A program made the translations under genes and the position numbers. The notes beneath the pieces are model-generated. The model saw nothing but the letters and a program-made list of their open reading frames with translations. It was not told the DNA's origin and did not search any database. Below are positions 1-8,451 of a stretch of DNA of 8,451 bases, piece after piece (position 1 is the first letter of the stretch; each line of letters starts with the position of its first letter). Origin of the DNA: a virus. Lineage: Duplodnaviria > Heunggongvirae > Uroviricota > Caudoviricetes. The stretch spans positions 1 to 8,451 of the IMG/VR virus record IMGVR_UViG_2802429216_000005, one strand, 5' to 3'.

Positions 1-1433
1 TTATCGGCGTCAGGCTGGCTGATATTGGCTGCCTGCATAATTTTGTTTACTTCGTCAGCGGTAACTTTTACCGGCTCCGGTTGTGCGATCGTGTCAGATG
101 CACCAGTATTTTGTTGTGAACCTGAGTATGTACCGTTTTTGCGGGCAAAATATTCTTCTTTCGTGATTTCAGTAGCCCCTGCAGCCAGCGCCTTATTCAG
201 ACCAGAAAGTTTGTTTGCACGACCGTATTTTTCGCCATCCTTGTCGGTGAAGAGGAAGTAGAACGGCCCCTCACGCTCTACAGATGATTCGACTTCCACT
301 TTGCATTCGGTTTTTTCGTTGTCGTGAATTGCCGTTTCCACTGCGTCAGTTTCTGGTACTGGCGACGAGAGAGTATTAGCTGTGCCCTGATTTGTTCCTT
401 CGTCATCTTCAAACACGCCCTTTGTAGTCAGGTATTCAGTGATGTATTTGTTCAGTGCCACGGGATCTTTGTGAATGTCGATCGGGCGTTCACGGACAAG
501 GCCAAAAATAGTCTGGCGGCTGTAGCGAAGCGCATCAGGTTGTTTGCGCATTGATGCGGAGATGCGCTTCCAGTCTTCGCGATCTCTGGCGATAACTTCA
601 TTTTTAGCCCAGCGAAGGATGCTGCCGTCAATGTTTCCGGCATCCGCATCACCAGGCCAGAGATAGTAGGCCAGCTCCCTGTCCAGGGTTTTCCATGTCT
701 GCTTGTATTCGCGATGAATGGCGGCAGTTACAGGAGGGATTTTTTCTGCTGGGTTTTCAGTGTGCTGTCGGTTGGCTTTGGCGCGGGCAAGATCAACAAC
801 AGACGTGTATTTTCCAGTCTCTTTGCGCTCTGCGTCCTGCCGTTTTTTCCAGTTACGTAATTCAACCTGAATTTCGGGCCATTTGGTACCCGGCTTACAT
901 TTGTGTTTAACCCATCCGATAGCGAACAGTTTGCGTTCCGGATACATAGCGTTAATTTCAGGCGTTTTCATCAGTGCTTCAACGATATGCCCGTCAAAGG
1001 TAGCCACGTCTTCTTGCAGTAATTCCTGCGCGTCAATCGCCATATCAACGGTGATGTTTTCACATGTACCGAACTTAACCAGGACCGCGTTCTGTACTTC
1101 AAGGGACAGCTTGTCAAAATTGACGTTAATAGGATCGGATTCTGGTTCGACCGGAATAAAGGAAGCGGATTCCTCATCCCAGTGGTTTTCCTGCATATAT
1201 TCGGTATCCCAGGAGTCGATAGCAGGGCGGGGCATGCCGGGTTTATCTTCGCAGACAAGAAATTTATAAGCGCAGTCCTGAGCAGCAGGATATTGCTCCA
1301 GGAATTGCCAGGTAAATTTGGCACGGGCGCGGCGTTCATCACCGGCTTCAATGGCAGTGGCTACAGCAACTGCGCCCTCTTCTTTTATTGCCTGTTCGTC
1401 CGGAATGGCGGCGCAAATAAAGACTTTACTCAT
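1..1433 (-). CDS. Large acidic hypothetical protein, distal gene of the leftward early operon; N-terminal 477+ aa present, C-terminus beyond window start
   Basis: Minus-strand frame is open from ATG (1433-1431) to position 1; no in-frame stop, which is why the ORF track omits it. GAGG about 10 nt upstream (plus-strand cctc 1444-1447). N-terminus MSKVFICAAIPDEQAIKEEGAVAVATAIEAGDERRARAKFTWQFLEQYPAAQDCAYKF. All listed ORFs overlapping it lie in other frames and look like shadows. No catalytic motif recognised by eye. Confidence 0.75.
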   Translation of the reverse strand, partial: MSKVFICAAIPDEQAIKEEGAVAVATAIEAGDERRARAKFTWQFLEQYPAAQDCAYKFLVCEDKPGMPRPAIDSWDTEYMQENHWDEESASFIPVEPESDPINVNFDKLSLEVQNAVLVKFGTCENITVDMAIDAQELLQEDVATFDGHIVEALMKTPEINAMYPERKLFAIGWVKHKCKPGTKWPEIQVELRNWKKRQDAERKETGKYTSVVDLARAKANRQHTENPAEKIPPVTAAIHREYKQTWKTLDRELAYYLWPGDADAGNIDGSILRWAKNEVIARDREDWKRISASMRKQPDALRYSRQTIFGLVRERPIDIHKDPVALNKYITEYLTTKGVFEDDEGTNQGTANTLSSPVPETDAVETAIHDNEKTECKVEVESSVEREGPFYFLFTDKDGEKYGRANKLSGLNKALAAGATEITKEEYFARKNGTYSGSQQNTGASDTIAQPEPVKVTADEVNKIMQAANISQPDAD

Positions 1434-1526
1434 TTTGTTTTAACCTCATTACAGATTTAAGGGTGAACAAATCCCTGCCATTGCTGGCATATAAAAATGA
1501 AACCGGATATTAATTACGGTGCTGTT

Positions 1527-1718
1527 TTAAAGTCCTGCCGGTATTTCGTTATTATTAGTGTGAGTAGTTTTATCTACCGGATAACAGTTACCGGGAATTT
1601 TTTGTTCTGCTGCTGCAGCCATGCATTCTTTCATTGAACCGTATAAGCCAGTCACCAGCTCAAGAGATTCGCCGGAAACAAGATAAACTGTCAGAACGAG
1701 TGCAAATGTTGTATTCAT
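1527..1718 (-). CDS. Small protein (63 aa) with N-terminal hydrophobic segment, probably membrane or secreted
   Basis: ORF track; start ATG overlaps the stop of the upstream gene (ATGA, 1715-1718); AAGGA about 8 nt upstream; N-terminus MNTTFALVLTVYLVSG is hydrophobic; two Cys residues. Confidence 0.55.
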   Translation of the reverse strand: MNTTFALVLTVYLVSGESLELVTGLYGSMKECMAAAAEQKIPGNCYPVDKTTHTNNNEIPAGL

Positions 1719-1903
1719 TGTTTATATCCTTTTTGCAGCAGGTCCAGACGAGCCAGCATTGAAGGAATGCATACTTCATTTAACAGGTCCTGCTCGAGTT
1801 TTCTCTGCTTAATGGCGTCTTCAATAAATGTTTTGTCTCCAGTGATAACGCCAATTTCGAAACGAAGTTCAGACGTGATGGCATTACATGATAACTTTTC
1901 CAT
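1715..1903 (-). CDS. Small hypothetical protein (62 aa); alternative GTG start at 2008 would give 97 aa
   Basis: In-frame ATG at 1903-1901 is preceded by GAGGA with about 7-nt spacing, whereas the GTG at 2008 used by the ORF track has no obvious SD. Stop overlaps the next start (ATGA), indicating translational coupling. Confidence 0.5.
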   Translation of the reverse strand: MEKLSCNAITSELRFEIGVITGDKTFIEDAIKQRKLEQDLLNEVCIPSMLARLDLLQKGYKQ

Positions 1904-2406
1904 TATCGCGTCCTCAACAATGAATTTTGTGATGCGGTGCCTGGTGCCTCCAGGTGACGTTAACCAGTTAACAATTAACGCCGGATACAGAGAATCCACC
2001 CATAACACTGTTTTTGGTTTTAACTGTTCCGCGTGCGCTGAGCCGCATTCACCGCATCACAAAATTCACTTTTAAAAAAGGGCGGCAGAGCAGTCACGGA
2101 GTAAAACTGATACCGCCAAATGTCACCAGAATATTGATAACAGAGGGCGTTGTAGCGGGGTTGTCACTTAAGCGTATGGTCAACCTGACAACCCGGTGTC
2201 CTCAACGGGGAAAGGCGTCCCTCCCACCCCCGCCATACTTACCGCCGCGCCATTTCGCGGGTCGCCACAACCGGAAGCGCACGGTCGAATTAAATTTAAC
2301 GACACCGTGCAGTGAGACGAACTTCGCCGTGCGCTTTCGTGTTGTGTGCCTGCTTTTAACCACGTCAGGCGAGGTGGTTTCCGTCATTCCCCAACGACAG
2401 GAAATC

Positions 2407-2414
2407 TGTATAAT
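2407..2414 (+). promoter_or_regulatory. Candidate -10 element (TGTATAAT) for the plus-strand antisense cassette
   Basis: Perfect TATAAT at 2409-2414 with TG immediately 5'; followed by AAGGA SD (2435-2439) and ATG 2446. No convincing -35 hexamer found (best ATTCCC/GTCATT), so this is weak. Confidence 0.3.
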
Positions 2415-2480
2415 CTGGGTATCCCCAACGATCCAAGGAAATCATATGACAGAGCAAAGAGCACAAGCAGGTGATGGTGT

Positions 2481-2687
2481 ATGGACCGGGATGATATTCT
2501 TGACAGAATTTTTTATGGCTATTTTCTTGAGCAACTGTTTTCTGTAGCGACTGGTCGTCTCGATAAACTTCTCTCAGTAGTGAGTATTATCCTCGGTTCA
2601 TCTGTCATTGGCGGATTCATTCCGGAAATTTCTGGCGTTTTTATTGTTGTGATCGCAACCGTCCAAACGATTTATGGATTCGGATAA
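2481..2687 (+). CDS. Small membrane protein (68 aa), antisense to the leftward operon, at the sieB-like position
   Basis: ORF track; AGGTGA SD (2469-2474) 6 nt before ATG 2481; hydrophobic stretch LSVVSIILGSSVIGGFIPEISGVFIVVIATV consistent with a TM helix; AT-rich. Same frame as the next ORF, separated by a single TAA (2685-2687). Confidence 0.5.
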   Translation: MDRDDILDRIFYGYFLEQLFSVATGRLDKLLSVVSIILGSSVIGGFIPEISGVFIVVIATVQTIYGFG

Positions 2688-2702
2688 AAGTCAGGTAATA
2701 CC

Positions 2703-2927
2703 ATGAGAAAATCCGCAGAATATTTGCAGCTTTTTGATGATGCAGAAAAATATTCTGATTCGGAATTGAAAATTCAGTTAAAAACTCTGGAAAAAACAGA
2801 TAATCATATTTGGTCATCACTTAAAGATATTGCGATCTTAAAAACACAGATCAAAATAGGCGTCTCCATCGAACAACAAGAGAAGTTGCCCACAAAATCC
2901 AAATTGATGCGATTTCTTTGTGGTTAG
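2703..2927 (+). CDS. Small hydrophilic protein (74 aa), second ORF of the antisense cassette
   Basis: ORF track; very AT-rich; weak SD AGGT (2692-2695); same frame as 2481-2687. Could be the C-terminal part of a disrupted larger gene. Confidence 0.45.
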   Translation: MRKSAEYLQLFDDAEKYSDSELKIQLKTLEKTDNHIWSSLKDIAILKTQIKIGVSIEQQEKLPTKSKLMRFLCG

Positions 2928-3016
2928 GAATATCCAGATTGTTAAAGAGCATGCCGGAGGTTTATCCGTGTCCGGCGCACGCACTTCATCTGCGGAGAAC
3001 TACTTGAGCTCATTGG

Positions 3017-3232
3017 TCAGTAGTTTTCAATCACTCGCGAAACGTTTAATGCCGCGCTTTTTGCCAGAGTGGTAATATCCTGCTCCGCTGACACCAGTTC
3101 TTTAGAGAGGCGCTCTTTGTAGTCAGCGGCCTGCTTCAGGTCATTAATGGCGCGTATCTTTCCGCACATCCATTCGTAAATTTCATCCTCGGTATAGTCT
3201 GGTGCGATGATGACGGGTTCTCGTTTCTGCAT
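3017..3232 (-). CDS. Hypothetical early protein (71 aa)
   Basis: ORF track; GAGGA SD 6 nt upstream of ATG (3232-3230); same orientation as the repressor-proximal leftward operon. Confidence 0.65.
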   Translation of the reverse strand: MQKREPVIIAPDYTEDEIYEWMCGKIRAINDLKQAADYKERLSKELVSAEQDITTLAKSAALNVSRVIENY

Positions 3233-3261
3233 ACTGATTCCTCGAGGTGCCGCTTCGCTTA

Positions 3262-3390
3262 TCAGTCGTTAGATTTTGCCGAACTGGAAAGCGCCTGTTT
3301 AAACTCACTGAAGCTGAGAGCTTCTTCGCCTTCGGCAAGGCCTTCGAAGTATTCTTCGTAAGCCTTTTCCATGATTGCGTCGAAATCCAT
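3262..3390 (-). CDS. Tiny acidic protein (42 aa), below the ORF-track length cut-off
   Basis: Manual translation of the minus strand: MDFDAIMEKAYEEYFEGLAEGEEALSFSEFKQALSSSAKSND. Its ATG (3390-3388) sits 1 nt after the TGA of the upstream gene (TGAtATG), with GGTGAG just upstream. Size recalls Rac ydaG (44 aa, from memory), unverified. Confidence 0.4.
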   Translation of the reverse strand: MDFDAIMEKAYEEYFEGLAEGEEALSFSEFKQALSSSAKSND

Positions 3391-3391
3391 A

Positions 3392-3547
3392 TCACTCACC
3401 TGAATTTCTTTCCAGCCAGCGACGCGCGCCAGCTTCGGTTTTAAACGTTTTGCTTCTGGTATACGTCATCGCGGTGAACGTGCCGTCCTGGTTGGGAAAC
3501 ACGCCGTACACCAGAGATTCGTTGTTGCCAAGATCGATAGTATCCAT
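3392..3547 (-). CDS. Small protein (51 aa), first gene of the leftward operon; alternative upstream ATG at 3628 would give 78 aa
   Basis: Internal ATG at 3547-3545 has GAGG with 5-nt spacer, better than the context of the ATG at 3628. Protein MDTIDLGNNESLVYGVFPNQDGTFTAMTYTRSKTFKTEAGARRWLERNSGE. Size and position recall Rac ydaF (51 aa, from memory), unverified. Confidence 0.55.
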   Translation of the reverse strand: MDTIDLGNNESLVYGVFPNQDGTFTAMTYTRSKTFKTEAGARRWLERNSGE

Positions 3548-3725
3548 GCTGACCTCATTTCCCCTTAACGCCGGGGTAGCGGAACAAAAACCTGCTGCAT
3601 AGTTATTAAAGTTGAACCCTGCCGTCATGTTCTTACGCCTCGGGCTGGCTACTTAACCCCTGACCACTGCCGGGTAACTCTAGGTATTGCCCTGCGTTCT
3701 GTGGGGCGGGGTGGGTTGGCATGTA

Positions 3726-3775
3726 TATAATGTACTTTATGTTCAGTGTTGTAAAGTACTTTGAGTACATTTTAT
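3726..3775. promoter_or_regulatory. Putative leftward early promoter/operator (OL/pL-like) region
   Basis: Lies about 150 bp upstream of the first leftward gene. Contains TGTACTttatGTTC (3731-3744), palindrome AAAGTACTTT (3753-3762) and AGTACA (3764-3769), the same motif family as in the repressor/cro intergenic region. On the minus strand TTTACA followed by CATTAT at 17-bp spacing is a plausible -35/-10. Confidence 0.35.
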
Positions 3776-3845
3776 GTGTAAAAAAATGAGATGGGAAAAA
3801 GTGAAGCACAAACCCGGAGGGGGACGCTACCGGATTTATGCTGGT

Positions 3846-4265
3846 TTAAGAGGCTTTTTGTTTTTTCTTTCGTGCTAACTCTTCGTAAATTGCATTGTAC
3901 TTTTGTTTTTTCTCCTCAAGAGTTTTTAAAAGTTCATCTGTCTCACTGTCAGGGAGCTCGTCCAGAAGATCAATGATGATTTTTTGTCTTGGATTTAACT
4001 CCTGATAGAAACGTACCTGTCCACTTTCTTCTGTATCCTCTCCCAAAAGATAGGTTGGTGTTGTTCCAATGAGTGTTGCTAATTCCCTTAATTTCTCTCG
4101 GCGAGGAATTGTTTCGCCATTAAACCATTTGCTAACCGCTTTTGGTGTTAATTTCATTCGACGGGCAATTTCTGCCTGCCTTCCATGTTGTTCATAACCA
4201 GCGTTTTCACAGGCTAGCGCAAGCCTACTGGCGAACTCTTTACGCGCTTTATCTTCATGAACCAT
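3846..4265 (-). CDS. Prophage repressor, XRE/cI-type HTH N-terminal domain, no S24 peptidase domain evident (RacR-like)
   Basis: ORF track, 139 aa; HTH segment MKLTPKAVSKWFNGETIPRREKLRELATLIGTTPTYLLG; C-terminal half is charged and coiled-coil-like (ELLKTLEEKKQKYNAIYEELARKKKQKAS). Divergent from the Cro-like gene across an 80-bp intergenic region with repeated operator-like motifs. Confidence 0.85.
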   Translation of the reverse strand: MVHEDKARKEFASRLALACENAGYEQHGRQAEIARRMKLTPKAVSKWFNGETIPRREKLRELATLIGTTPTYLLGEDTEESGQVRFYQELNPRQKIIIDLLDELPDSETDELLKTLEEKKQKYNAIYEELARKKKQKAS

Positions 4266-4344
4266 AAGTTCAATGATATTCGCTCTTGAATGTACTGTCA
4301 GTTCTGTTATAGCATGTACTCAAAGTTCACATTGTGAGGGTGAT
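4266..4344. promoter_or_regulatory. Divergent promoter/operator region (OR-like) between repressor and cro-like gene
   Basis: Direct repeat TGTACTnnnAGTTC at 4291-4304 and 4315-4328 (24-bp spacing); palindrome CACAtTGTG at 4328-4336. Candidate rightward promoter TTGAAT (4286-4291), 16 bp, TATAGC (4308-4313). SD GAGGGTGA (4336-4343) before ATG 4345. Confidence 0.5.
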
Positions 4345-4599
4345 ATGAACCAGAAAACACTTGAAGATGTAATCAAAACTGTTCGCGTTTCTGTTGTGGC
4401 CGACGTTTGTGGTGTCAGCCAAAGAGCAATCTACAAATGGATGGATAACGGAAAATTGCCTCGCACTGAATATACCGGCGAAACAAATTATGCTGAAAAA
4501 ATCGCTCATGCATCAAACGGATTATTTTCTGCCGATGCAATTTTAACTATTGGCAGAAATAAAACTACTACGAAAAAGCTGTTGGGAGTTGATTCATGA
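4345..4599 (+). CDS. Cro-like / YdaS-like HTH DNA-binding protein (84 aa from ATG 4345; ORF track start 4273 rejected)
   Basis: HTH VADVCGVSQRAIYKWMDNGKLP; strong SD GAGGGTGA before ATG 4345, whereas the ATG at 4273 lies inside the operator region. Stop overlaps the next gene start (ATGA at 4596-4599). Confidence 0.75.
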   Translation: MNQKTLEDVIKTVRVSVVADVCGVSQRAIYKWMDNGKLPRTEYTGETNYAEKIAHASNGLFSADAILTIGRNKTTTKKLLGVDS

Positions 4600-5021
4600 A
4601 AATCAAGCATGAGCACATCCGCATGGCGATGAATGCCTGGTCGCATCCGGACGGCGAAAAAGTTCCGGCAGCTGAAATAACCCGGGCTTATTTTGAACTG
4701 GGTATGACGTTTCCGGAACTGTACGACGATTCACACCCAGAAGCCCTGGCTCGCAATACTCAGAAGATTTTCCGCTGGGTGGAGAAAGACACCCCTGATG
4801 CGGTTAAAAAAATTCAGGCGTTGTTACCAGCGATCGAAAAAGCAATGCCACCTCTGCTGGTGGCCCGAATGCGCAGCCACAGTTCAACCTGGTTTCGGGA
4901 GCTGGTGGAGACGCGGGAACGACTGGTGAGAGACGCTGATGATTTTGTCGCAGTGGCGATCGCTGGTTTCAATCAGATGAATCGTGGTGGTCCGGCGGGA
5001 AATGCCGTGGTGATGCACTAA
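4596..5021 (+). CDS. ydaT: YdaT-like protein (141 aa), the reported functional CII analogue of Rac/CP-933P-type prophages
   Basis: ORF track; position immediately after the cro-like gene with coupled ATGA start; size 141 aa versus 140 aa for Rac YdaT; N-terminus MKIKHEHI matches my recollection of YdaT. Assignment is from memory and synteny, not a search. Confidence 0.7.
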   Translation: MKIKHEHIRMAMNAWSHPDGEKVPAAEITRAYFELGMTFPELYDDSHPEALARNTQKIFRWVEKDTPDAVKKIQALLPAIEKAMPPLLVARMRSHSSTWFRELVETRERLVRDADDFVAVAIAGFNQMNRGGPAGNAVVMH

Positions 5022-5044
5022 AAGCACGGTGTTCGGAGTTTTTT

Positions 5045-5992
5045 ATGAGCAGCAAGCTTCATGGTCTTGTCTGGGAAGGGTGTGCCTTCACCGGCATGAT
5101 CTTATCCAGGGTGGCAGTAATGGCTCGCCTTGCAGATTACAGCAATGACGAAGGTGTGTCATGGCCTGCAGTGGAGACCATTCGTCGTCAGATTGGGGCA
5201 AAGAGTGAATCAACGGTTAAAGCGGCGATAGCGGAACTGGAAAAGAACGGCTGGCTGACGAAGGAGGAACGTAAGGTCGGTGGGCGTAATGAAAGCAATA
5301 TCTACCGTCTTAATGTGGAAAAACTCGAAGCAGCAGCAGCGGCGGCGCGTGAGGCATATAAACCGAAAAGAAAAATTAACCCGGTAAAAAATGACCCGTC
5401 AAATATTGACCCCTCAACGGTTGACCCCTCAAATTTTGATGGATCAACCGTTGATAAAAAACATTCGGTTAGGGGGACGATGGTTGGCCCCGATCCGTCA
5501 GTATTAAAACCTGATCCGCCAGATAAAAGATCTTCTTGTCCGGACGCTTCGCAACCGGACCCGCAGATGGCTGAACAGGATTTTTTAACCCGACACCCTG
5601 ACGCGGTTGTGTTCAGTGCGAAAAAACGCCAGTGGGGCAGCCAGGAAGATTTAGCGTGTGCGCAGTGGATCTGGGGGCGAATCGTGAGTCTTTACGAGCA
5701 GGCTGCCAGCGATGATGGCGAAATCATGCGACCGAAAGAACCAAACTGGACTGCATGGGCCAATGATGTGCGCACAATGCGGATGCTGGATGGCAGAACT
5801 CACAGACAAATTTGCGAAATGTTTGGTCGGGTACAGCGGGATCCATTCTGGGTAAAAAACATCATGAGTCCGGCAAAACTCCGGGAAAAATGGGATGAGC
5901 TGGTTATTCGTCTGGGGCGTTCGCCTGTACAGCGTTGCGTGAATCACATTTCTGAACCGGATACCGAAATTCCGCCGGGGTTCAGGGGGTAA
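5045..5992 (+). CDS. Replication initiator, lambda O-like: N-terminal winged-helix DNA-binding domain, central iteron-encoded repeat linker, C-terminal domain of unknown fold
   Basis: ORF track, 315 aa; GGAG SD 7 nt upstream; N-terminal region with HTH-like segment (VSWPAVETIRRQIGAKSESTVKAAIAELEKNGWL); central 5-aa tandem repeat NDPSN-IDPST-VDPSN-FDGST-VDKKH encoded by 15-bp iterons; position after cro and the CII-like gene. Confidence 0.8.
   Translation: MSSKLHGLVWEGCAFTGMILSRVAVMARLADYSNDEGVSWPAVETIRRQIGAKSESTVKAAIAELEKNGWLTKEERKVGGRNESNIYRLNVEKLEAAAAAAREAYKPKRKINPVKNDPSNIDPSTVDPSNFDGSTVDKKHSVRGTMVGPDPSVLKPDPPDKRSSCPDASQPDPQMAEQDFLTRHPDAVVFSAKKRQWGSQEDLACAQWIWGRIVSLYEQAASDDGEIMRPKEPNWTAWANDVRTMRMLDGRTHRQICEMFGRVQRDPFWVKNIMSPAKLREKWDELVIRLGRSPVQRCVNHISEPDTEIPPGFRG
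5391..5465. repeat. Five tandem 15-bp iterons, candidate phage replication origin inside the initiator gene
   Basis: aTGACCCgTCAA (5391), TTGACCCCTCAA (5406), TTGACCCCTCAA (5421), TTGATGGATCAA (5436), TTGATAAAAAAC (5451), at exact 15-bp spacing; each unit has dyad ends TTGA....TCAA. Confidence 0.6.
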
Positions 5993-6034
5993 GTGTTGAT
6001 TTGAGGTCATGAAGTTATTTTCTCAGGAGAGTTT

Positions 6035-6436
6035 ATGGGGGCTATTTATACCGAAGAACAGCGGGAAAGATTACAGCGTCACATCGTTGACCTTGTACGT
6101 AAAAACGGGCGTATGAAAATGCCACAACTGGCATCGGCAACATATGCTTCACATGATTCCATTCGCCGGTACCTGAAGATGCTGGTGAGCCAGGGCGAAG
6201 TGTATGTTGTCAGCGGAAAAGGGGTATTCCTTTCAGAGAGAGTTTACCGTGAATGGCTGGCAAGTTCGGCAAAAAAATCAAGGGTTATCCGCAAACCAGC
6301 ACAAAAACAGGGTAAGGCCGGAGTACAACCCTACGACCGGCACCAGAACGTAATTTGCCGGGAATGTCGTAACAGCGAATCAATGCAGCGGGTACTGGCT
6401 TTTTACCGGGGTGGATTTCAGGAGCTCGTATCGTGA
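6035..6436 (+). CDS. Putative winged-helix DNA-binding protein (133 aa)
   Basis: ORF track; AGGAGA SD; basic middle region (KKSRVIRKPAQKQGKAG) and CxxC near C-terminus (CRECRN); stop overlaps the next start (GTGA). Confidence 0.7.
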   Translation: MGAIYTEEQRERLQRHIVDLVRKNGRMKMPQLASATYASHDSIRRYLKMLVSQGEVYVVSGKGVFLSERVYREWLASSAKKSRVIRKPAQKQGKAGVQPYDRHQNVICRECRNSESMQRVLAFYRGGFQELVS

Positions 6437-6741
6437 AAAAGTGGGTGCGTGCCGAGATACTGATTCTACGGCAGTGTGCGGGAACAATGACGGTGGAATG
6501 TATCGGGATGCTTATTGGTCGTAGTGAGGCTGCGGTCAGAACGAAAGCGCGGGAACTGGGTATTAGTATGATGTTACGGGGTGATTATCACCAGTCAGCA
6601 AAATATCCGCAGAGTGATATTGAGCTGGCGCGACAGCTGCATCAGCTTGGCGTGTCCAGGAGAGAAATCGCCAGAAAATTTGGAATGCCGCTGCGCACAG
6701 TGAATAACTACGTTTATTTCGACAGGAGGGTGTCTGCGTGA
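6433..6741 (+). CDS. HTH-containing hypothetical protein (102 aa), GTG start
   Basis: ORF track; two HTH-like segments (GRSEAAVRTKARELGI; LGVSRREIARKFGMPLRTVNNYV); GTGA overlap with the previous stop. Confidence 0.7.
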   Translation: MKKWVRAEILILRQCAGTMTVECIGMLIGRSEAAVRTKARELGISMMLRGDYHQSAKYPQSDIELARQLHQLGVSRREIARKFGMPLRTVNNYVYFDRRVSA

Positions 6742-6971
6742 AAATCCTGTATCAGGATTACGGCCCGGTGGGACAGGTGGTTATCAGCAGTACTGTAATG
6801 GAGTTCCGGAAGCATAACCGTGTGGTGGATGCAGTACTGTTAGCCTGTCCGGGGATATCGGCGAGCCGTGCAGGTGTGTTTTTTATGAAGACGAAGTTAT
6901 ATGGCAGTACAGCGTGGATAAAGAAGGCGTACCGGGTAGCGTTACAGGAGGTAAACAGTGAGCGAAATTAA
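6738..6971 (+). CDS. Small hypothetical protein (77 aa), GTG start
   Basis: ORF track; GAGGG upstream; start overlaps the previous stop (GTGA); 3' end overlaps the next gene by 14 nt. Confidence 0.6.
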   Translation: MKILYQDYGPVGQVVISSTVMEFRKHNRVVDAVLLACPGISASRAGVFFMKTKLYGSTAWIKKAYRVALQEVNSERN

Positions 6972-7419
6972 CTGTCAGGCACTGCGAGAGGCGGCAGAGA
7001 AAGCAACTAAAGGAAGCTACATCGTAGGGCATACGTCTGTTAACCAGCATGGCAATTTAACAGGAGTTTTTGTTTGTCAAAAATGGAAAGGAGAACCCGG
7101 TGGCGTGATTGCAGAATGTCATGTTAACTGCCTGGTTGAAACAGATGCTCAGGCTTACGCAAACGCTGAATTTATTGCTGCCTTTAATCCAAAGGTTGCG
7201 CTGGCGATACTGGATAAGCTGGAAGCTAAAGACAAGCGCATTGCAGAACTGGAGGCGAGGGAAATCCAGTTACCTGCTGGCTTCGACCTTCGATATGGAC
7301 ACCCGATAAATGCTGATGAGCGACATGTGATGATACCTAAAGAAAATGGCAACTGGATTCATCGGACTGACTTAGAGCACTCACTACGTGTTGCAGGGAT
7401 TCGTATTAAAGGAGACTAA
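6958..7419 (+). CDS. Ead/Ea22-like family protein (153 aa)
   Basis: ORF track; strong SD AGGAGG before GTG 6958; N-terminal ALREAAEKATKGSY and internal NAEFIAAFNPKVALAILDKLEAKDKRIAELE resemble, from memory, the conserved pattern of Ead/Ea22-like prophage proteins. Confidence 0.7.
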   Translation: MSEINCQALREAAEKATKGSYIVGHTSVNQHGNLTGVFVCQKWKGEPGGVIAECHVNCLVETDAQAYANAEFIAAFNPKVALAILDKLEAKDKRIAELEAREIQLPAGFDLRYGHPINADERHVMIPKENGNWIHRTDLEHSLRVAGIRIKGD

Positions 7420-7420
7420 C

Positions 7421-7777
7421 GTGGAAATAAAACCAGAAGATGAGTTAAGTAATATTGTTTTATTTCCGGTAAAAGAGGATGACCCACGTAATCAGGTTAA
7501 TTTTCTTTATGAGCCATCGGAAAGACCATATTGTCATCACGACTCTGTCCGGGTTGACGAAAAAGAGCGTCAGGTCCGCTGTAAAATCTGCGGTGCAGTT
7601 GTGGAGCCATTTGACTGGATGCTCTCTGTGGCGAAAAGAGAAACCAGACTGGCAGATGATGTAAGGATCTTGCGCCAGGAGGAACGGGAAAGGCGGAGAA
7701 ATATAGAAAAGCTAATTCAGATTGAGCGTAACGTGAAAGCGCGGATACGCAGGGCGACAAAATCCAGAACAGAATAA
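7421..7777 (+). CDS. Hypothetical protein with putative zinc-ribbon (118 aa from GTG 7421; ORF track ATG 7388 rejected)
   Basis: SD AAAGGAG (7408-7414) 6 nt before GTG 7421, immediately after the previous stop (7417-7419); the ATG at 7388 would overlap the upstream gene by 32 nt. Cys/His cluster YCHHD...CKICG; basic C-terminus. Confidence 0.65.
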   Translation: MEIKPEDELSNIVLFPVKEDDPRNQVNFLYEPSERPYCHHDSVRVDEKERQVRCKICGAVVEPFDWMLSVAKRETRLADDVRILRQEERERRRNIEKLIQIERNVKARIRRATKSRTE

Positions 7778-7825
7778 TTAAATTTAGCACTGTTAAAAAT
7801 TTAATCCTTAACCGGAGGTATATCA

Positions 7826-8020
7826 ATGTCAAACGCACAGAAAGTTATTAACGCTGAAAAATATAACGAGTGGGTGAAAAAGTTCTCAGAGCAGATTTTT
7901 AAAATTACTGGCGACGAGAATGCGGCAAAAAATGAATTAGAGCCGTGGACACCTGAAGGTGTCGCCCCAAATTATTGCTGGTGGATGTTGATCCAGTTGA
8001 TGCTGCAAATGAAGCGATGA
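7826..8020 (+). CDS. Small hypothetical protein (64 aa)
   Basis: ORF track; SD GGAGG (7813-7817) with about 8-nt spacer before ATG 7826. Confidence 0.6.
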   Translation: MSNAQKVINAEKYNEWVKKFSEQIFKITGDENAAKNELEPWTPEGVAPNYCWWMLIQLMLQMKR

Positions 8021-8046
8021 GTTATCACAACGATTAATGTCAGGAG

Positions 8047-8064
8047 GCCGCCCGAAAGGGCGGT
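8047..8064 (+). other. Stable GC hairpin with GAAA tetraloop between an SD-like AGGAGG and the next start codon
   Basis: GCCGCCC-GAAA-GGGCGGT: 6 G:C pairs plus a closing G:U (8047-8053 with 8058-8064). No U-tract follows on either strand, so not a classical intrinsic terminator. Confidence 0.45.
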
Positions 8065-8072
8065 AATGAAAA

Positions 8073-8451
8073 GTGACTGAATTAACCAAAGAGCAATTAA
8101 TCGAAGAAGCCAAATTAAAAATAGCGATTGCGAAATGCCACCCCAATTCAGGGATGGCACGGGTAGAGGGCGAGTTATTCAAAATTGCACTGGCATCGCT
8201 GGTAGCAGAACCGCTGGTGCCCGTCATGTATAAAGGAATGAAACTGTTAACAAAAGAGGGGCTTGAGCTTATTCGTGACGGTATTGCGGAGGCTACGGGA
8301 CTGGAAGCAATGTGTATGGCTGATGCTTTGCTGTCTGGGGGGGGGGGGGCGGGGGGGGGGGGGGGGGGGGGGTTGTTTTGGCAGGGGGCACCAGTGGAAG
8401 CTTGCAGCACAGAGTGGGAGAACGGAAGCGCGGGAAAACAATCACGCCCTG
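8073..8451 (+). CDS. Hypothetical protein, GTG start, 3' end beyond the window; reading frame passes through the homopolymer G tract, so the distal part is unreliable
   Basis: Frame open from GTG 8073 to the window end (VTELTKEQLIEEAKLKIAIAKCHPNSGMARVEGELFKIALASLVAEPLVPVMYKGMKLLTKEGLELIRDGIAEATGLEAMCMADALLS...). Absent from the ORF track because it has no stop in the window. The G-run translates to poly-Gly. Confidence 0.4.
   Translation, partial: MTELTKEQLIEEAKLKIAIAKCHPNSGMARVEGELFKIALASLVAEPLVPVMYKGMKLLTKEGLELIRDGIAEATGLEAMCMADALLSGGGGAGGGGGGGLFWQGAPVEACSTEWENGSAGKQSRP
8337..8372. repeat. Homopolymeric tract G13-C-G22
   Basis: Direct count: G x13 (8337-8349), C (8350), G x22 (8351-8372). 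Confidence 0.95.

What the first reader, a model, noticed from the sequence alone, without database searches (positions are those of the whole stretch)
8337..8372. Anomalous 36-nt G13-C-G22 homopolymer near the window end
Homopolymers this long are essentially unknown in enterobacterial phage genomes. The tract sits inside an otherwise normal-looking ORF, forcing poly-Gly on the plus strand and creating spurious poly-Pro ORFs on the minus strand. Most plausible explanations are a two-colour Illumina poly-G artefact at a contig end, a dG/dC-tailing cloning junction, or a chimeric join; the 79 bp that follow may not belong to the same locus. A genuine hypermutable switch is possible but unlikely.
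Basis: partly seen in the sequence, partly recalled or inferred. Interest (0 to 1): 0.6.

Follow-up and report, generated by a model that had tools for sequence, protein, structure and literature searches.

The report
Poly-G sequencing artefact at contig end
The 36-base G tract is a real 13-G run in a prophage gene followed by 22 falsely called Gs and about 80 bases of decaying base calls at the untrimmed end of a draft-genome contig, so it is a sequencing artefact and not biology.

Summary
The tract is exactly as described: G13 (8337-8349), C (8350), G22 (8351-8372). It splits into a real part and a false part.

The window is the whole 8,451-nt contig PTRQ01000064.1 of a draft Escherichia assembly (GCA_002965625.1), so the tract lies 79 nt from a contig end. 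Positions 1-8350, including G13 and the C, match sibling Rac-like prophages with 0-1 mismatches. Those siblings carry a natural G8-G14 run here, inside a DUF551-family gene, always followed by CAGTGCCGTCAGTGCCG.

From 8351 on, 22 real bases (AGTGCCGTCAGTGCCGAAAGAA) are replaced one-for-one by G. The next 39 nt still match the true continuation in register (30/39, P=2e-11). The last 40 nt are noise (16/40). This tail matches nothing else in E. coli genomes, phages or plasmids.

At least ten other draft contigs break within 12 nt of the same run.

Best reading: base calling collapsed after a genuine G13 homopolymer, probably by the Illumina two-colour "no signal = G" effect, and an untrimmed read tail was kept as a contig tip. 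A chimeric join and dG/dC tailing are rejected. A real G22 expansion is very unlikely.

The only item of biological interest is the natural, length-variable G8-G14 run.

The parts
8073..8451 (+). Partial CDS running off the contig end, the N-terminal part of a prophage DUF551-family protein. It was deposited as the 126-aa partial protein WP_105279264.1. It is authentic only up to 8350.
   Evidence: The intact G13 allele (P0011, 230 aa) has the DUF551 domain at residues 161-227, which lies beyond the contig end.
8337..8349 (+). Genuine G13 homopolymer. It encodes the Gly linker at residues 89-92 of the protein.
   Evidence: Identical to L002, which has G13. Siblings carry G10-G14 in inspected loci, and G8/G9 are inferred from exact frameshift products.
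8350..8350 (+). Genuine C, the first base after the natural run (CAGTGCCG...).
   Evidence: Every natural locus of this lineage has C here. The match between the window and L002 runs through 8350.
8351..8372 (+). 22 false G calls that overwrite the true AGTGCCGTCAGTGCCGAAAGAA base for base, with no length change.
   Evidence: collinear with L002 and no indel needed. Only the 7 true Gs match, and all 15 non-G bases read as G.
8373..8411 (+). Degraded but recognisable copy of the true continuation (ATGTATTGGCAGGATGCACCAGTTGAAAG...).
   Evidence: 30/39 identical in register, P=2e-11. It differs at positions that are invariant in five natural alleles. 8 of 9 errors are of the signal-loss type.
8412..8451 (+). 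Base calls indistinguishable from noise, running to the contig end.
   Evidence: 16/40 identical (P=0.07). A gapped alignment is no better than shuffles. No match in E. coli genomes, phages or plasmids.

Best explanation
This is a sequencing and assembly artefact seeded by a real homopolymer.

The strain carries a Rac-like lambdoid prophage. Its DUF551-family gene contains a genuine G13 run followed by CAGTGCCG... Reads entering the run from the left lost usable signal or phase after it. The next 22 cycles were called G, the following ~40 cycles were called partly correctly, and the rest is noise.

No good read bridged the run, so the assembly graph broke there. One such untrimmed read tail, or a few, was kept as the last 101 nt of the contig.

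The most likely instrument-level cause is Illumina two-colour chemistry, in which absence of signal is called G. This last step is inferred, not shown.
For: - **Contig end.** The window equals the complete contig PTRQ01000064.1 (8,451 nt) of GCA_002965625.1, byte for byte, so the tract is 79 nt from a contig end.
- **Abrupt change.** There are 0 mismatches in 8,347 nt against L006 and 1 in 8,350 nt against L002, through G13 and the C. After that, the window differs at 35 of 81 columns that are invariant in five natural alleles.
- **Replacement, not insertion.** G22 replaces exactly 22 true bases. The window stays collinear with L002 to its last base.
- **Decay along the read direction.** Identity is 7/22, then 30/39 (P=2e-11), then 16/40 (not significant). 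The errors are substitutions only.
- **Error spectrum.** All 15 overwritten bases became G. In the informative stretch, 8/9 errors are of the two-colour signal-loss type. The two-signal base A is hit most often: 6/14 against 3/25 for the others, P=0.047.
- **Tail is unique.** It has no match in 28 Gb of E. coli genomes, in phages or in plasmids. It has no exact match in viral, genome or metagenome contigs.
- **Natural alleles differ.** All 14 loci of this lineage fetched from other assemblies have G10-G14 followed by CAGTGCCGTCAGTGCCG. No product corresponding to a longer run exists in the 15-billion-protein collection.
- **Recurrent break point.** Partial N-terminal products ending just before the run occur on 10 other contigs. 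Three were inspected and end 1, 4 and 11 nt before the run. One Logan contig starts 10 nt after it.
- **Known artefact.** The poly-G problem of two-colour instruments is documented (PMC6129281; PMC11140927).
Against: - A classic two-colour poly-G tail runs to the end of the read. Here recognisable sequence returns for ~39 nt after the 22 Gs, so simple monotonic signal loss does not fit. Dephasing or run-length heterogeneity within the cluster after the G13 run must be invoked as well.
- In the last 40 nt only 11 of 24 errors are of the signal-loss type.
- The sequencing platform, read depth and base qualities of this assembly could not be obtained. The paper describing the MOD1-EC collection is not held. 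That it was Illumina short-read data is my recollection only.
Confidence: 0.9

Rival explanations
1. Same artefact class, different instrument cause. Dephasing after the G13 homopolymer on a four-colour Illumina instrument, or a low-coverage consensus of a few poor read tails built by the assembler, rather than the two-colour 'dark = G' effect.
For: Sequence partly recovers after G22, and errors in the last 40 nt are not G-directed. This fits mixed-phase signal better than pure signal loss. Assemblies from many projects break at this run, so the homopolymer itself is troublesome whatever the chemistry.
Against: 22 consecutive uniform G calls with 15/15 non-G bases converted are most typical of the no-signal call of two-colour chemistry (PMC6129281). 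No platform data are available either way.
Confidence: 0.3
2. A genuine biological allele. In this strain the homopolymer expanded to G13-C-G22 and the adjacent ~80 nt diverged through a local hypermutation or recombination patch.
For: The natural run is length-variable (G8-G14). The tract as written keeps the reading frame.
Against: - Slippage adds or removes repeat units. It does not replace 22 unrelated bases by exactly 22 Gs while keeping register.
- Divergence rises from 0/8,350 to about 55% within 100 nt and grows towards the contig end.
- It hits positions invariant in alleles about 10% divergent.
- The tail matches no other sequence.
- The feature sits exactly at a contig tip.
Confidence: 0.03
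3. A chimeric join or a dG/dC homopolymer-tailing cloning junction. On this view the 79 nt after the tract come from another locus or from a vector.
For: A long G run followed by sequence that BLAST cannot place looks superficially like a tailing junction.
Against: - The first 39 nt after the tract match the same gene's continuation in exact register (30/39, P=2e-11; best of all offsets, 46/79 against at most 38 in 500 shuffles).
- There is no vector or plasmid hit.
- The record is a 2018-era WGS draft contig, not a clone.
Confidence: 0.01

Closest known systems
Poly-G read-tail artefact of Illumina two-colour chemistry (NextSeq/NovaSeq), as handled by fastp poly-G trimming (PMC6129281)
   Same: Non-G bases are called G when the signal is weak. 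It occurs at the 3' end of reads, and here it sits at a contig tip. 15/15 overwritten bases became G.
   Different: The G stretch is only 22 cycles long and recognisable sequence then returns for ~39 nt before decaying. It starts immediately after a genuine G13 run, which suggests homopolymer-triggered dephasing rather than end-of-read fading. The platform is not verified.
Homopolymer-induced assembly breaks and length miscalls in short-read data (e.g. PMC11140927 on homopolymer performance)
   Same: A long G run degrades calls and breaks contigs. At least 10 other draft contigs end within 12 nt of the same run. Reported run lengths differ between otherwise identical prophages.
   Different: Most assemblers left clean, trimmed ends. 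This assembly kept a corrupted tail, which was then annotated and deposited as a protein.
Slipped-strand-mispairing contingency loci (phase-variable poly-G/poly-C tracts, e.g. in Neisseria, Haemophilus and Campylobacter; from general knowledge)
   Same: The underlying natural run (G8-G14) lies inside a coding sequence. Its length changes switch the frame: G10 and G13 give 229-230 aa, while G9, G11 and G12 truncate the protein.
   Different: No evidence here separates in-vivo slippage from sequencing miscounts. E. coli is mismatch-repair proficient. The G22 portion is not part of any such tract.

Membership tests
Two-colour Illumina poly-G artefact at a contig or read tip | Lies at the 3' end of a read, or at the end of a contig | tested here: met
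   The window is the entire contig PTRQ01000064.1. The tract is 79 nt from its 3' end.
Two-colour Illumina poly-G artefact at a contig or read tip | True non-G bases are replaced by G in register (miscalls, not insertions) | tested here: met
   22 true bases are replaced by 22 Gs. The window is collinear with L002 to the last base. 15/15 non-G bases became G.
Two-colour Illumina poly-G artefact at a contig or read tip | The poly-G continues to the end of the read once the signal is lost | tested here: not met
   After G22, 30/39 bases are again correct before decaying to noise. So this is not the textbook tail, and dephasing after the real G13 must contribute.
Two-colour Illumina poly-G artefact at a contig or read tip | Data produced on a two-colour instrument, with low base quality and low depth over the stretch | not testable with these tools
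The collection paper is not held.
Phase-variable (slipped-strand) homopolymer tract | Tract length is polymorphic among otherwise near-identical genomes and toggles the reading frame | tested here: met
   This applies to the natural run only. Run lengths are G10-G14 in inspected loci, and G8/G9 are inferred from exact products. The flanks differ by 0-3 SNPs in 8.3 kb. G9, G11 and G12 truncate the protein.
Phase-variable (slipped-strand) homopolymer tract | Length heterogeneity demonstrated in vivo (within a clone, by an accurate method), with a phenotype | not testable with these tools
   Only assembled consensus sequences are available. Homopolymer miscounting cannot be excluded.
Phase-variable (slipped-strand) homopolymer tract | The variant arises by gain or loss of repeat units with the flanks preserved | tested here: not met
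   For the G22 segment the 3' flank is overwritten, not displaced.
dG/dC-tailing cloning junction or chimeric join | Sequence beyond the tract derives from a vector or from another locus | tested here: not met
   The tail matches the same gene in register. It has no match in E. coli genomes, phages or plasmids.
DUF551 (PF04448) prophage protein (host gene of the tract) | Significant match to the PF04448 domain | tested here: met
   The intact G13 allele P0011 scores E=8e-17 over residues 161-227. The window's truncated and corrupted product P0007 has no domain hit, because the domain lies beyond the contig end.

The most novel reading that the evidence does not exclude
Beneath the artefact lies a real G8-G14 homopolymer in the Gly linker of a prophage DUF551-family gene. 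This run could be a true slipped-strand contingency tract that switches the protein on (G10, G13) and off (G9, G11, G12) in a Rac-like E. coli prophage. The G22 itself would remain an artefact.
Probability: 0.25. Interest if true: 0.4.

Novelty: not a real feature. Interest (0 to 1): 0.1.

Why it matters
Mainly for data hygiene.
- The corrupted tip was annotated. It sits in RefSeq and UniRef as a 126-aa partial protein with a false poly-Gly tail (WP_105279264.1 / UPI000CF791A9).
- Such contig-tip artefacts create false ORFs and false 'anomalies' in genome scans.
- The case shows a practical rule: test whether an odd tract is in register with sibling genomes and whether it lies at a contig end.

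The only biological residue is a natural, unusually long (G8-G14) and length-variable homopolymer in a prophage gene. It repeatedly breaks short-read assemblies.

Tried and rejected
- **Exact-pattern scans for the tail.** Scans of viral, genome and metagenome contigs gave 0 hits, so the source was not found that way. Scans for the natural junction in the same three collections also gave 0 hits.
- **Look-up of spurious ORFs.** The minus-strand poly-Pro ORFs, tried to locate the source contig, are not on record. The source was finally found through the cluster of the natural alleles' products.
- **Indel-type errors.** I tested whether the far tail aligns better with gaps, which would point to long-read error. 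It is no better than shuffles.
- **Natural divergent allele.** I tested whether the tail is one by aligning it to five alleles, including ones about 10% divergent. It differs at 35/81 invariant columns.
- **Apparent corrupted tip elsewhere.** P0017, a 137-aa partial with an unusual N-terminus, looked like a possible mirror-image corrupted tip. It has many other natural-looking differences and is more likely a divergent allele. This was not pursued.
- **Sequencing platform.** I tried to establish it from the literature. The collection paper (Genome Announc 2017, PMC5730671) is not held and no substitute was found.
- **Length coincidence.** A Logan contig is also 8,451 nt long. It covers a different span, so this is a coincidence.

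Full report
**Observation.** The tract is exactly as reported: G13 at 8337-8349, C at 8350 and G22 at 8351-8372, with 79 nt left before the window end. Apart from these two runs, no G or C run in the window exceeds 5 nt. With 25.6% G, a run of G>=13 is expected 1.3e-4 times and a run of G>=22 6e-10 times in 8.4 kb. The tract lies in an ORF starting at GTG 8073. It reads ...LLSGGGGAGGGGGGGLFWQGAPVE... on the plus strand and creates three poly-Pro ORFs on the minus strand.

**What the window is.** The window is the early region of a Rac-like lambdoid prophage. It encodes:
- a RecE/YdfE-type exonuclease fragment, DicB, DUF1482 and DUF1391;
- an HTH repressor, a YdaT toxin-family protein and an HTH_36 replication-type protein;
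- DUF977, Ead/Ea22 and a DUF551-family gene.

An exact-sequence look-up of the products of the natural alleles turned up a cluster member, P0007. This is a 126-aa 'partial' protein of Escherichia sp. MOD1-EC1915 on a contig of 8,451 nt. P0007 equals the window's truncated ORF. Its contig, PTRQ01000064.1 of GCA_002965625.1, is byte-identical to the window. The window is therefore a complete draft-genome contig, and the tract is 79 nt from its 3' end.

**What sibling genomes have at this spot.**
- Window 1-8346 matches the prophage of E. coli OkiPb01695 at 99.8% in one ungapped piece. The match stops inside the G run.
- Against loci fetched through an exact shared protein, the window has 0 mismatches in 8,347 nt to L006. 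It has 1 mismatch in 8,350 nt to L002, and this match runs through G13 and the following C.
- All 14 loci of this lineage fetched from other assemblies carry a poly-G here: G10, G11, G12, G13 or G14. The run is always followed by CAGTGCCGTCAGTGCCGAAAGAAATGTATTGGCAGGATGCACC.
- Exact-product counts in the 15-billion-protein collection show alleles corresponding to G8 (1 contig), G9 (14), G10 (2, plus 4 of a variant), G11 (13), G12 (13) and G13 (2). No full-length or frameshift product for G14-G16 is present.

So G13 plus C in the window is a genuine allele. The anomaly proper is 8351-8451.

**Anatomy of the corrupted stretch.** When laid on L002 without any gap, the window behaves as follows:

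| Segment | Identical to L002 | Note |
|---|---|---|
| 1-8336 | 8,335 of 8,336 | |
| 8337-8350 | 14 of 14 | G13 and C |
| 8351-8372 | 7 of 22 | only the true Gs match |
| 8373-8411 | 30 of 39 | P=2e-11 |
| 8412-8451 | 16 of 40 | P=0.07; gaps do not help |

- The 22 Gs replace AGTGCCGTCAGTGCCGAAAGAA base for base. Nothing is inserted or deleted.
- From 8351 on, the window differs at 35 of 81 columns that are invariant in five natural alleles, some of them about 10% divergent.
- The 79-nt tail has no match in 28 Gb of complete E. coli genomes, in 50,697 phage records or in 72,556 plasmids at word size 11 and E<=10. Its exact sequence is absent from the viral, genome and metagenome contig collections.

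**Error spectrum.** All 15 overwritten non-G bases became G. In 8373-8411, 8 of 9 errors are of the kind produced by losing one or both signals in two-colour chemistry (A>T, A>C, A>G, T>G). A, the base that needs both signals, is hit 6 of 14 times against 3 of 25 for the other bases (P=0.047). In the last 40 nt the errors are unstructured.

**The run is a recurrent assembly break point.** Partial N-terminal products of 84-88 aa that end at a contig end occur on 10 other contigs. Three of these were inspected and end 1, 4 and 11 nt before the run. A Logan contig starts 10 nt after it. Those assemblers left clean ends, whereas this assembly kept a dirty one.

**Mechanism (inferred).**
1. Reads entering the genuine G13 run from the left lose phase or signal.
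2. For 22 cycles the base caller returns G.
3. A partly correct signal then returns for ~40 cycles and fades into noise.
4. Reads from the opposite strand would suffer the mirror problem, so no clean read bridges the run and the assembly graph breaks.
5. An untrimmed read tail survived as the contig tip.

Two-colour Illumina chemistry calls 'no signal' as G, and its poly-G tails are documented (PMC6129281; PMC11140927). I hold the artefact class at about 0.9. Within that class I hold the two-colour cause at roughly 0.55-0.6, for two reasons:
- The classic tail does not recover as this one does.
- I could not obtain the platform. That the MOD1-EC genomes are Illumina short-read assemblies is my recollection only.

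**Rivals.**
- *A real G13-C-G22 allele.* This would need a 22-for-22 replacement in register, plus divergence rising from 0 to about 55% within 100 nt, exactly at a contig tip and at otherwise invariant positions. I put it at about 0.03.
- *A chimeric join or dG/dC tailing.* This is contradicted by the in-register match of the tail to the same gene and by the absence of any vector or foreign match. I put it at about 0.01.

**Comparison with what is known, and novelty.** As reported, the feature is not real. It is closest to the known poly-G and homopolymer artefacts of short-read sequencing.

The underlying natural run is real and mildly interesting. It encodes a Gly3-4 linker at residues 89-92, upstream of the DUF551 domain at residues 161-227. 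It lies at a mosaic junction, because about 900 other E. coli genomes share only the part 3' of the run. Its reported length varies among prophages that otherwise differ by 0-3 SNPs in 8.3 kb, and out-of-frame lengths are the most common. The data here cannot decide whether that reflects in-vivo slippage or homopolymer miscounting.

**Verdict.** Interest is low.

Noticed in passing
window 8337-8349; L001 3538-3547; L002-L007 at 13293; L016-L022: There is a natural poly-G run in the DUF551-family gene of this Rac-like prophage lineage. It is G10-G14 in inspected loci, and G8/G9 are inferred from exact frameshift products. It varies between prophages that differ by 0-3 SNPs in 8.3 kb. Out-of-frame lengths (G9, G11, G12) are the commonest. 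This could be a contingency tract or just homopolymer miscounting.
   Followed up: partly
window 8044-8071 (stem 8047-8053 / 8058-8064): A hairpin GCCGCCC-GAAA-GGGCGGT lies directly after an AGGAGG motif and 8 nt before the GTG start of the DUF551-family gene. The centroid energy is -15.5 kcal/mol and z is -3.1. There is no T-run, so it is not an intrinsic terminator. The 28-nt string occurs exactly in 103 IMG/VR contigs ahead of at least four different downstream gene starts. A 32-nt exact match occurs in Actinobacillus phage vB_Apl-pPE4 (H12). It may be a conserved translation-initiation or module-junction element.
   Followed up: partly
L002 13306-13322 (true continuation of window 8350 onward): A 9-bp direct duplication, CAGTGCCGT CAGTGCCG (encoding VPSVP), follows the natural G run directly in every allele of this lineage. 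It is partly conserved in divergent alleles.
   Followed up: no
window 8073-8451 (protein P0007): The corrupted contig tip was annotated and propagated to protein databases as a 126-aa partial hypothetical protein with a false poly-Gly tail. The accessions are WP_105279264.1 and UniRef100_UPI000CF791A9.
   Followed up: yes
L011 end; L126 end; L127 end; L128 start: Other draft assemblies break at the same homopolymer. Contigs end 11, 1 and 4 nt before the run and one starts 10 nt after it. Partial products indicate at least 10 such contigs.
   Followed up: yes
window 7826-8020: The 64-aa ORF just upstream of the hairpin is annotated as a frameshifted pseudogene in the closest complete genome, OkiPb01695 (CDS 3027-3238 in L001). 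It is intact in the window and in most siblings.
   Followed up: no
L016 (Logan SRR28422105_463): An unrelated Logan contig carrying the same prophage region is also exactly 8,451 nt long. It covers a different span and has G11, so this is a coincidence and not the source.
   Followed up: yes
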